DNA from: Stylophora pistillata
Lineage: Eukaryota
Direction: 5' to 3'
NCBI RefSeq assembly: GCF_002571385.2
Contig: NW_019217934.1
Location: 525,124-581,888, forward strand
Length of the DNA stretch: 56,765 bases
The translations under genes and the position numbers were made by a program. Within the stretch, counting starts at the first letter, position 1. Every line of letters starts with the position of its first letter. This document shows, piece after piece, positions 38,598 through 40,983 of this stretch. The notes under the pieces are model-generated. The model was not told where the DNA came from. It ran no database searches and saw only the letters and a list, made by a program, of their open reading frames with translations.

Positions 38598-40983
38598 TTA
38601 AATCCATAGTTCAAAGCGTTGTTCTTGGTTCTTGACCGGTCCTTGTTTGGGATATATGTCTGCAAGCTCCGACTCCTTCGGAGCAGCCAAGGAGAATCGA
38701 GGCTGATGGAATCGTGGATGCAAAAACTTGTAGTACAATGTCATCATGAGAAGTCCCGCAAAGAAAAACACGAAAATCACAATGAACCCTGCAAGCTCTA
38801 CTTGAAACGGTAAATGCCCACTTCTATTTGTATACCAGAGAATTGAAAAGATCAGATTTTCGACAAAAGTCAAGATGTAGTACTTAATTGCCCAACGTAT
38901 GGTGCGTACGCCTTCCAGGCAAAAGAAGCAAAACAAATGAATGTAACACACGACTACACGGAAAAAATGTTGCTTCAGGTTGGATCTTGGAAAAAAATAA
39001 AGCTCGTGACGCCAAAGGAACGCCAAAACAATGACAAAGTGAATAGAAAGGGCAACGAAAAACCATACTTTGAACTCTGTTGCGAAGAAAACGAGCGAAA
39101 GTATTCGAGAAATAATCATGAAAGCTCTCCATAGCCACATGGATAGGTAACCGTACCAGCGCAACTGGCCTTTGTGGCGTTTTGAGTCACGGAGGCAGTT
39201 GATGTAGTTAACAACTGCTCTAGAATAGGAAACGAAAGAAAAACAAATGGAAAGGATGGTCCACAAGTCTTGGACACTTGTTGCTTCAAACTCTGCAAGG
39301 ATTTGACGCGAGACGAGGACGTACAGCTGTAAAACAAGCTGAGGTACATCTTCTGTGAAAGCTAAAATCATTTGCAGCATGCTAATGTCAAGATTCATAG
39401 CTATTAATATCTTGTGATCAACAACTCGTTGTTCCTTTTTTCGTTTTATTCGATACGATTTGACAAGGATTCTCCAGTACCTGGAGAAAAAGAGAAAGGC
39501 AAAAACTGAATAACAGCACTGTTGACGCAGAGAGAATTAGAGATGTAATCAATTGGCTATTGTAAAACCAATTTGGCAAAAGGAGAAGCCTCTGATCAAA
39601 GTGATAGTCTAAATCAGCCGTCCCAAACTTCTTATCTTGAGCAAACACAAACGCACCGTCAAGGTAAACAAACAAGCAAACAAACTGAAAAAGGCACTCG
39701 GTGCAACGAAACATTTGACTTCAATTCTTGTCGCGCTTTTTATTGGACCCCTCTCCCAGTGATACCTACCACATTTTGAAACTGTGTCCCCTCCACGAAG
39801 AAAATGTGCAATTAAGACCTTTGCAACTTGTGTCTTAGCCTACGTGGGGCCGTACCCTTCCCTTCGAGGAGAAAAAGGGAGGAGGGTAGGGCTACACGTA
39901 CGCTACCTGAGTCTCTCAATCTAAAATTTTTCAGCTAGTTCAGTTTTACCTCTCTATAGGCCCCACTAAAAATAAATGTGTTGCTACGACAACTTTCCAG
40001 CCACTTTTCGGTCGCCTTCCAATCTTTTCATCTTCTTTGTACCAAAAGAAAGATACCAAGTTTATGATAATAGATGGAAGTAGCACAAACGTCACTGTGA
40101 GACTTCCCCACCAGTTGCTGCCGGCTCTGAAATGGTCAGCTGCAACTTTAAGATCCGTTGCAATGTCGGCGAAGAACGCGCCAATCCCCACTACCGAGAA
40201 AAAAATGCCAAGCCATGTTGCGTTACCACGCTTCCGCCATAACTCTGAGAAGTCTTTGTCCATTTTTCGAGGCCGCATTTTTAAATTATCCATCACTAAA
40301 TGTACCGCTCGTTTGAAGCGTTCTCGTGGTGGTAAATATCTGAGTCCGCTAGCTTTGTTACGAGAGCGTCCATTGGTGACACTAAACTTCGTTCCATTCG
40401 TGACACTGTCTGGTAACGCACCTGTCACGTAAGAGTTTCTGACTACAATTGCCTCGTGACTTTGCTTTGTCACAGCAACAGAGTATCCATAGAAGCGTTT
40501 GTATTTACTTGCGATTTCGTTTTCGAATGACTGTCTTCCGCTTAAATTCCCAAAACTGTTTGTGGTAGACTTATTTTTGGATTCCTCGTCGTCTATTTCG
40601 ATACATACTTGCTCCACAGCTTTTACATTTTCTTTTGAGACGCGAACATAAAAGCGACCAGGATTCACGAAAGTTCCGCTTCCCTGATTAGAGGATCCGG
40701 AAAGATAGCTTTCAATCGACCAGTTTCTATCCACTTTTCTACCCTTTCCGTCGACTTCATCCCCTGTAGGTTCCGTATCCCTCTGATTACTTGTAAATGT
40801 TTCAATAATCTTGCGAAGGAGAATAATCTCCTCCTCGCTTAACTTCGCGAAGTGGTCACCATCCACTGTTGCGTTTCTCGTGGAATGGGAAGAAATTTGC
40901 CGCCTAAGGGCTCGTACGGTTCGTTTCTGTTTTTCATCTAGCTTCAGTGTGGTCTGAAGATGTTTTGAATGTTCAAGATCCAT
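38598..40983 (-). CDS. XK-related protein (XKR4/6/7-like phospholipid scramblase family), 638 aa
   Basis: Two exons, 40983-39950 and 39480-38598 (phase 2). FFADIATDLKVAADHF, WWGSLTVTFVLLPS, SFFWY, FTEDVPQLVLQLY, SRILSLVFFA, YYILTFVEN, YYKFLHP are XK-family motifs. Confidence 0.92.

What the first reader, a model, noticed from the sequence alone, without database searches (positions are those of the whole stretch)
40747..40761. XKR scramblase with an optimal caspase-3/7 site (DEVD|G) in a long N-terminal tail
Residues 75-79 are DEVDG within a ~255-aa cytosolic extension. Vertebrate XKR4/8/9 are activated by C-terminal caspase cleavage, whereas C. elegans CED-8 is cleaved N-terminally. The C-tail here has no DxxD site and ends in a PDZ-like ELWI. 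An N-terminal site in a probable cnidarian suggests that caspase-gated PS exposure is pre-bilaterian or has evolved repeatedly. A basic amphipathic stretch (RERFKRAVHLVM) might add calmodulin control.
Basis: partly seen in the sequence, partly recalled or inferred. Interest (0 to 1): 0.7.

Follow-up and report, generated by a model that had tools for sequence, protein, structure and literature searches.

The report
Coral scramblase with conserved caspase site
This stony-coral gene encodes an XK-family membrane protein whose long front tail carries a caspase-type cut motif kept in most of its relatives, so cell-death proteases likely cut it there, which would switch on the lipid 'eat-me' signal of dying cells in a lineage older than worms and vertebrates.

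Summary
Observation confirmed. A spliced two-exon XK-related gene (638 aa, minus strand) encodes D75-E-V-D78-G79 at 40747-40761 in a ~255-aa N-terminal tail; exon 2 has no DxxD. D78 is the slowest of 126 low-confidence tail sites. Exact DEVDG is in only 7 of 27. The motif lies in a predicted disordered loop between two strand-helix repeats of a small tail module found only in this cnidarian lineage. Against: Nematostella's orthologue and four other clusters lack it; cleavage and activation are untested; purified CED-8 and XKR4 scramble uncleaved. The site lies ~180 residues before TM1 and is not shown homologous to CED-8's. DxxD motifs are also enriched in N-tails of 108 other XKRs, so an N-terminal site is not special to corals. 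Verdict: likely a real, selected caspase site (~0.75); CED-8-like activation is my best mechanism (~0.45). New variant of a known kind.

The parts
39950..40983 (-). XKR exon 1 coding part: start codon, ~255-aa N-terminal tail, TM1-TM2 region (residues 1-345)
   Evidence: Pfam XK-related positions 1-87, 72.7 bits; RNA contigs cover it
39481..39949 (-). phase-2 intron, GT..AG
   Evidence: sequence; skipped in runs X1, X10, X3, not in X17
38598..39480 (-). XKR exon 2 coding part with stop: rest of the membrane domain and a ~38-aa C-tail
   Evidence: Pfam XK-related positions 88-337, 192.5 bits
40747..40761 (-). D75-E-V-D78|G79, predicted caspase site in a low-confidence loop
   Evidence: kept as DxxD|G/A in 22 of 27 clusters; pLDDT 30-42
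40876..40935 (-). basic helix A (17-36), holding a conserved L-x-R-Q-x-S31 kinase-like motif
   Evidence: model; R28 and S31 nearly invariant; kinase reading recalled
40777..40854 (-). strand 1 and helix B (44-69), first strand-helix repeat; would leave with the 1-78 fragment
   Evidence: model, pLDDT 60-73
40570..40656 (-). strand 2 and helix C (110-138) after the conserved P108-x-R110-F motif, second repeat; would stay on the membrane protein
   Evidence: model; P108 and R110 invariant
40708..40728 (-). R86-x-x-S89-x-x-S92, conserved serine motif just after the caspase-type site
   Evidence: S89 in 23 of 27, S92 in 21 of 27
40276..40326 (-). conserved basic amphipathic helix RERFKRAVHLVM (220-236) before TM1
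   Evidence: F223 in 26 of 27, R222 in 25 of 27; net +4, hydrophobic moment 0.32; absent in P0028
40153..40167 (-). TM1 D273 and D277, matching the Xkr4 calcium ligands D123 and D127
   Evidence: alignment of the Orbicella orthologue to human XKR4; PMC10495444
39351..39353 (-). TM3 E388, matching Xkr4 E310
38658..38669 (-). C-tail ELAD (616-619): conserved, but a poor caspase motif (P4 Glu, large P1')
   Evidence: 7 of 8 distinct scleractinian C-tails including this one; absent in P0019 and in Nematostella
38601..38615 (-). C-terminal FELWI, a conserved hydrophobic end (PDZ class II-like, or a cavity plug)
   Evidence: F-x-[LF]-W-I in 8 of 8 distinct scleractinian C-tails, not in Nematostella; function untested

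Best explanation
This is a cnidarian-lineage XK-related protein, likely a plasma-membrane lipid scramblase, whose conserved DxxD|G in the N-terminal tail is likely cut by a DxxD-specific caspase during apoptosis; the cut would split a small predicted tail module and would thereby lift a restraint on phosphatidylserine scrambling, as described for CED-8 in cells. Shown: gene structure, splicing, family, membrane acidic triad, motif and its conservation. Predicted: two strand-helix repeats (44-69 and 110-138) pair into one module, with the motif in the disordered loop between them. Inferred: cytosolic position of the tail, cleavage after D78 (~0.75), release of residues 1-78, and activation rather than another outcome (~0.6 given cleavage). 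Conserved serine motifs (S31, S89) and the basic helix before TM1 may add kinase or lipid/calmodulin inputs; these are untested.
For: DxxD|G/A at this place in 22 of 27 cluster representatives against 2.05 expected by shuffling each loop; a second tail loop gives 1 against 0.74. The motif stays 10-16 residues after helix B even where the rest of the loop is 18-26% identical. Site rates: D78 0.26 (1st of 126 low-pLDDT sites), D75 0.32 (3rd), P1' Gly 0.43 (8th), while P3 is 1.85 and P2 1.35, median 1.47. Simulated columns at the median loop rate keep Asp in at least 23 of 27 tips with P = 0.0006 (0.011 at rate 1.0, 0.12 at 0.6). Among the 22, P3 is Glu in 11 and P2 is Val, Ile or Thr in 19, which fits caspase-3/7-type preference (established knowledge). 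The loop is predicted disordered. One of the three loss events lies in a copy that shares contig lengths with a motif-bearing copy in four assemblies, and 2 of those 4 motif-less copies leave the reading frame: likely a decaying duplicate. Corals have DxxD-cutting caspases, one crystallised with DEVD-CHO (PMC7586219). A soft coral keeps PS on the inner leaflet (PMC11258240). CED-8 is activated in cells by an N-terminal cut (PMC12334663). The Xkr4 acidic triad is kept.
Against: No cleavage or activity data exist here. 5 of 27 representatives lack the motif, among them the only named sea anemone orthologue (Nematostella, P0031; it has DAVD|A at 39 and DSLD|S later, which chance can give in a 510-aa tail, P about 0.3 for the second loop alone) and P0027. 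Other loop residues are about as conserved (S89, S92, G205), so conservation alone does not name a caspase. Purified full-length CED-8 and XKR4 scramble without cleavage, and the cut form of CED-8 is no more active (PMC12334663). The cut leaves ~178 tail residues, including the most conserved motif and the basic helix, so relief of a restraint is not obvious. The tail model is weak (pTM 0.43, mean pLDDT 58). The characterised coral caspases are weak enzymes in vitro and the main executioner is unidentified. The 27 rows are related, not independent.
Confidence: 0.45

Rival explanations
1. The site is a real caspase site, but the cut does not switch scrambling on: it relocalises the protein, frees a partner bound to the tail module, or marks the Gly-starting remainder for turnover.
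For: Same conservation data. Cleavage is not needed for CED-8 or XKR4 activity in liposomes, and XK works with VPS13 without a caspase site (PMC12334663). The site is ~180 residues from TM1. A Gly/N-degron route for caspase products is recalled, not from a call.
Against: In the four XKRs where cleavage was studied in cells it activates, whatever the terminus, and the XKR4 site is also distant from the membrane domain.
Confidence: 0.25
2. DxxDG is kept for a reason other than caspases: a turn or cap after helix B, a metal or partner-binding motif, or an acidic determinant for the nearby conserved serines.
For: It lies at a fairly fixed distance after helix B (10-16 residues) and before R86/S89/S92, which are similarly conserved. 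Asp-Gly is a common turn (established knowledge).
Against: Insertions and deletions occur on both sides; pLDDT is 30-42 there; the fixed-free-free-fixed-small pattern with Glu and Val favoured in the middle is the caspase pattern; Asp is not exchanged for Glu or Asn in any of the 22 carriers.
Confidence: 0.2
3. Activation is C-terminal after all, as in XKR8/9: a non-canonical cut at ELAD(619) removes the hydrophobic FELWI end that plugs the cytosolic cavity, and the N-terminal site is secondary.
For: ELAD is in 7 of 8 and the hydrophobic end in 8 of 8 distinct scleractinian C-tails. [quoted passage not shown]
Against: P4 is Glu and P1' is Ile, Arg, Gln, Lys or Thr, which caspases disfavour (established knowledge); it fits neither the DxxD nor the VxxD preference of the tested coral caspases; absent in P0019 and Nematostella.
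Confidence: 0.1

Closest known systems
C. elegans CED-8
   Same: XK family; caspase site in the N-terminal tail; no C-terminal DxxD here.
   Different: CED-8 (420 aa) loses only 21 residues. Here 78 would go and ~178 stay, and the site lies inside a lineage-specific module. Orthology and site homology were not tested; no CED-8 sequence was in hand.
Vertebrate XKR4 (with XKR6/7)
   Same: Best solved relative of the Orbicella orthologue (9boj, E 3.8e-29, ahead of XKR8 4e-19, XKR9 1e-15, XK 3e-11); D/D/E calcium triad kept; cut site far from the membrane domain.
   Different: XKR4 is cut C-terminally, losing 86 residues, and needs an XRCC4 fragment. T307 is Ala and S311 is Asp in the coral alignment. 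In the quick tree the coral-Nematostella group is its own long-stemmed clade (SH-aLRT 100), not placed with any named vertebrate XKR.
Vertebrate XKR8 and XKR9
   Same: Membrane domain alignable over its length.
   Different: Their caspase site follows the last TM closely and frees a cavity-plugging C-terminal helix; the coral C-tail has no DxxD, and their N-tails are very short.
Chelicerate 'XK-related protein 6' (Trichonephila, Nephila, Halotydeus) and unnamed kin
   Same: DxxD|S/A in the N-terminal tail, predicted only.
   Different: Their motif lies about 11-17 residues before TM1, depending on the anchor used, not ~180, and no strand-helix module was seen.

Membership tests
XK-related (PF09815) | Pfam match above the curated cut-off over the whole model | tested here: met
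   72.7 and 192.5 bits, model positions 1-87 and 88-337, cut-off 24.8
XK-related scramblases | Acidic residues in TM1 (two Asp) and TM3 (Glu) | tested here: met
   D273, D277, E388
XK-related scramblases | Lipid scrambling activity at the plasma membrane | not testable with these tools
   needs an assay
XKR4/8/9-type (C-terminally activated) | Caspase site in the C-terminal tail | tested here: not met
   no DxxD in exon 2 or in any of 11 C-tails examined; only the non-canonical ELAD
CED-8-type (N-terminally activated) | Caspase motif in the N-terminal tail | tested here: met
   DEVD|G at 75-79; 22 of 27 clusters
CED-8-type (N-terminally activated) | Orthology to CED-8 and homologous site position | not tested
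   no CED-8 sequence was retrieved; tail lengths differ greatly
CED-8-type (N-terminally activated) | Cleavage needed for PS exposure in cells | not testable with these tools
   needs D78A rescue test
Group II (DxxD) caspase substrate | DxxD followed by a small residue, in a disordered stretch, conserved beyond its flanks | tested here: met
   (disorder is predicted)
Group II (DxxD) caspase substrate | Actual cleavage | not testable with these tools
   needs an in vitro digest or N-terminomics
Calmodulin-binding helix | Basic amphipathic helix with spaced hydrophobic anchors | tested here: inconclusive
   net +4, moment 0.32, F223/V227/V230/M236 spacing; two other tail helices are as basic and more amphipathic; a membrane-surface helix fits equally; binding not tested
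PDZ class II ligand | Hydrophobic-x-hydrophobic at the C-terminus | tested here: inconclusive
   L-W-I or F-W-I in 8 of 8 scleractinian tails, not Nematostella; pattern recalled; binding not tested

The most novel reading that the evidence does not exclude
Cnidarians gate an XKR scramblase by a third design: a caspase splits an undescribed two-repeat strand-helix module ~180 residues from the membrane. With the DxxD excess in other animal XKR N-tails, this would make N-terminal caspase gating the old, widespread mode from before the cnidarian-bilaterian split, with a movable site, and the vertebrate C-terminal plug a late invention.
Probability: 0.25. Interest if true: 0.72.

Novelty: new variant of a known kind. 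Interest (0 to 1): 0.52.

Why it matters
Caspase-gated PS exposure by XKR proteins is established for vertebrates and one nematode. A conserved cut motif in a cnidarian lineage names a concrete candidate for the 'eat-me' switch of dying coral cells and gives a one-residue test (D78A) of how old that coupling is. It also offers a natural third arrangement for an open question: how cuts at different ends and distances activate XKRs when purified uncut proteins already scramble. It would add a candidate native substrate for the coral CARD-containing DxxD caspases. Four searches aimed at cnidarian or invertebrate XKRs listed no paper on such a site; the library lacks most subscription papers, including the original CED-8 paper.

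Tried and rejected
No whole genome is held, so paralogues outside the window could not be counted; the window has one XKR copy. A profile search for long homologues (773-2205 aa) found none (weak evidence). The ESM Atlas gave no usable hit for residues 1-140 and only generic XK clusters for the Orbicella protein. Fold searches of the tail model gave nothing clear: no Foldseek match at E<=0.001, best VIA Z 6.1 among unrelated helical proteins. I considered a ribbon-helix-helix likeness; none appeared in the listed rows, which neither supports nor excludes it. A complex prediction of Orbicella residues 1-78 with 79-633 returned no verdict (score 0.08, mark 0.34, alignment not used) and is not used either way. 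Earlier findings of the scan: nothing. The membrane-domain tree is the quick version only and cannot place the clade against CED-8 or XKR8. The CED-8 paper was not held; searches for a Drosophila Xkr paper found none relevant (PMC6174084 passages dealt with mammalian XKR8). Rejected: a sequencing or frame artefact (spliced RNA, orthologues); a chance motif; a later start codon that would drop the tail (M1 invariant); myristoylation of the new Gly end (no Ser/Thr at position 5; rule recalled). The taxa of the distant unnamed orthologues (P0020, P0022-P0025, P0027, P0028) stay unknown, so the clade's range beyond Scleractinia and Nematostella is open.

Full report
GENE. The finding lies in a minus-strand, two-exon gene. 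Exon 1 runs from the ATG at 40983 to a GT donor after 39950; exon 2 runs from 39480 to the stop at 38598; together 638 aa. Pfam XK-related is split across the exons, model positions 1-87 and 88-337. Of 24 runs listed, 20 from 7 studies hold the stretch. Of the four laid, three skip the intron exactly and their contigs cover the motif and reach past the ATG; the fourth shows no such joint and behaves as DNA. The closest named relatives are stony corals: Orbicella, Montipora and Desmophyllum.

OBSERVATION. Residues 75-79 are DEVDG at 40761-40747, the only DxxD in exon 1, with none in exon 2. In shuffles of the 255-aa tail exact DEVDG appears in 0.03% and loose DxxD[GSA] in 14%, so conservation had to decide.

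CONSERVATION. Three searches gave relatives that share the tail. I used 27 cluster representatives including the query. Left out were P0004 (DEVDG, near-copy of P0009), P0026 (no motif, replaced by its cluster mate P0195), P0033 (DDVDG, a 125-aa piece) and P0029, P0030, P0037, which do not cover the site. DxxD followed by Gly or Ala stands in the same loop in 22 of 27; shuffling each loop gives 2.05, and a second tail loop gives 1 against 0.74. Exact DEVDG is in 7 of 27; the other forms include DEID, DNVD, DDVD, DAVD, DEFD, DEED, DKAD, DTTD, DSVD, DGVD, DGTD, DDID and DVVD. It persists in relatives 33-41% identical over exon 1, whose loop is otherwise 18-26% identical, always 10-16 residues after helix B. 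On a tree of total length 13.8, D78 is the slowest of 126 low-confidence tail sites, D75 third and the following Gly eighth, while the two middle positions are fast. Simulated columns at the median loop rate keep Asp in at least 23 of 27 tips with P = 0.0006; at slower rates this rises to 0.011 and 0.12. P3 is Glu in 11 of 22 and P2 Val, Ile or Thr in 19 of 22. Fixed P4 and P1, a small P1' and free but biased middle positions are the pattern of a group II caspase site (established knowledge). The rows are related, so these counts are not independent trials.

LOSSES. Five rows lack the motif, in three lineages. P0014, P0015 and P0195 form one clade. Members of the P0014 and P0026/P0195 clusters lie on contigs of the same four lengths as members of the motif-bearing P0011 cluster, and two of those four motif-less copies leave the reading frame. 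I infer a duplicate under relaxed selection; this rests on contig lengths only, and no partner was seen for P0015. The other two losses count against my reading: P0027 and the Nematostella orthologue P0031. The latter has DAVD|A at 39 and DSLD|S further on, which chance can supply in its 510-aa tail.

THE TAIL. Outside the motif the tail holds conserved blocks. A model of residues 1-140 gives helix 17-36, strand 44-49 with helix 50-69, a low-confidence loop 70-105 that holds the motif, and strand 110-115 with helix 117-138 (mean pLDDT 58, pTM 0.43). As these are the only two strands they must pair in the model, so the cut would fall between the two halves of one small module. This is a weak prediction. 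The exon-1 model agrees on the helices and on disorder at the motif. Sequence similarity over this part was found only within this lineage. Also conserved are an R-Q-x-S31 and an R-x-x-S89 motif, which look like kinase sites (recalled consensus); Xkr8 can be activated by phosphorylation (PMC12334663).

MEMBRANE DOMAIN AND C-TAIL. The Orbicella orthologue matches XKR4 best among solved structures, then XKR8, XKR9 and XK. The Xkr4 calcium ligands D123, D127 and E310 (PMC10495444) correspond to D273, D277 and E388. A quick tree of 35 membrane domains puts the corals and Nematostella in one clade with full support on a long stem, without a clear sister among named proteins. None of 11 C-tails has a DxxD; ELAD is in 7 of 8 distinct scleractinian tails and the hydrophobic end in all 8.

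WIDER FAMILY. In 108 N-tails of other XKRs (those with a TM1 match of 15 bits or more and a tail of 30 aa or more), 38 hold DxxD[GSA] against 15.9 expected. Dx[VITLA]D[GSA] occurs 28 times against 5-6 in global and local shuffles; DxD[GSA], DD[GSA], DxxE[GSA] and ExxE[GSA] are not enriched, and DxxxD[GSA] only weakly (26 against 20). But DxxD with other P1' residues (116 against 76), ExxD[GSA] (28 against 15) and the reversed pattern (34 against 20) are enriched too, and one related group with a site just before TM1, which includes spider and mite proteins, contributes several hits. So N-terminal caspase-type motifs are likely common in animal XKRs, and the coral site is one version of them.

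MECHANISM. Shown: gene, splicing, family, motif, conservation. Inferred: a DxxD-specific caspase cuts after D78 (~0.75). Corals have such enzymes, the CARD-containing OfCasp3a and PaCasp7a, though weak in vitro (PMC7586219, abstract and passages). I commit to activation of PS scrambling by release of residues 1-78 (~0.45 overall), by analogy with the four XKRs studied in cells. Context: a soft coral keeps PS inside (PMC11258240, passages), and a PS-type apoptosis probe was used on Nematostella cells (PMC11251625, passages). Against: purified uncut CED-8 and XKR4 already scramble, and the cut leaves most of the tail in place. Rivals are a cut with another outcome (0.25), conservation for a non-caspase reason (0.2) and a C-terminal cut at ELAD (0.1).

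LITERATURE SEEN. Passages only: PMC12334663, PMC7586219, PMC8298096, PMC10495444, PMC10952466, PMC11258240, PMC11251625, PMC6174084 and bioRxiv 10.1101/2025.03.17.643603. All others were search listings. No supplements were opened; alignments in supplements of the XKR papers could already show invertebrate sites. Searches listed no paper on a cnidarian XKR caspase site.

VERDICT. It works like CED-8 in having an N-terminal site, but it is not shown to be a CED-8 orthologue, and it fails the C-terminal-site test of XKR4/8/9. New variant of a known kind; interest 0.52.

Noticed in passing
window 37246-37426 and 37931-38111, + strand: Last exons of a convergent gene with a weak phospholipase A2 match (Pfam E 0.013, below cut-off), spliced in three RNA runs. 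Its contig runs on into XKR exon 2, so the two 3' ends likely overlap.
   Followed up: partly
window 39481-39949: The XKR intron is covered in three RNA runs at depth like or above the spliced joint (32 vs 28, 30 vs 13, 21 vs 11), while the region upstream of the gene is nearly empty. Retention would put a stop right after residue 345; read-through from the opposite-strand gene is another explanation. Contigs cannot tell the strand.
   Followed up: no
window 40984-40998, - strand: A four-codon upstream frame whose stop codon abuts the XKR start codon, inside the part covered by RNA contigs; it could dampen translation.
   Followed up: no
window 40891-40908 and 40708-40728, - strand: Conserved R-Q-x-S31 and R-x-x-S89 motifs on either side of the caspase-type site, possible kinase sites.
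   Followed up: partly
proteins P0044, P0050, P0060, P0069, P0073, P0106, P0107, P0116, P0124: Other XKRs, among them spider and mite proteins, with DxxD|A/S/G just before TM1; P0142 and P0118 carry DxxD|G in the C-tail instead.
   Followed up: partly
proteins P0014, P0026, P0195, P0243 against P0011, P0211-P0213: Likely tandem duplicate that lost the motif and is decaying in some assemblies; Montipora has two copies on one contig length that both keep DEVDG (P0007, P0019).
   Followed up: partly
protein P0027: Carries the PGR-L-YV motif twice, before helix B and before helix C, which supports reading the tail module as a repeat.
   Followed up: no
window 54314-55338, + strand: Two consecutive exons of an astacin metalloprotease.
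   Followed up: no
window 292-1219, + strand: Overlapping repetitive frames; one scores on Pfam TALPID3 (35.7 bits), the other on many unrelated families, probably a repeat artefact.
   Followed up: no
window 42176-42266: Degenerate ATT microsatellite upstream of the gene.
   Followed up: no
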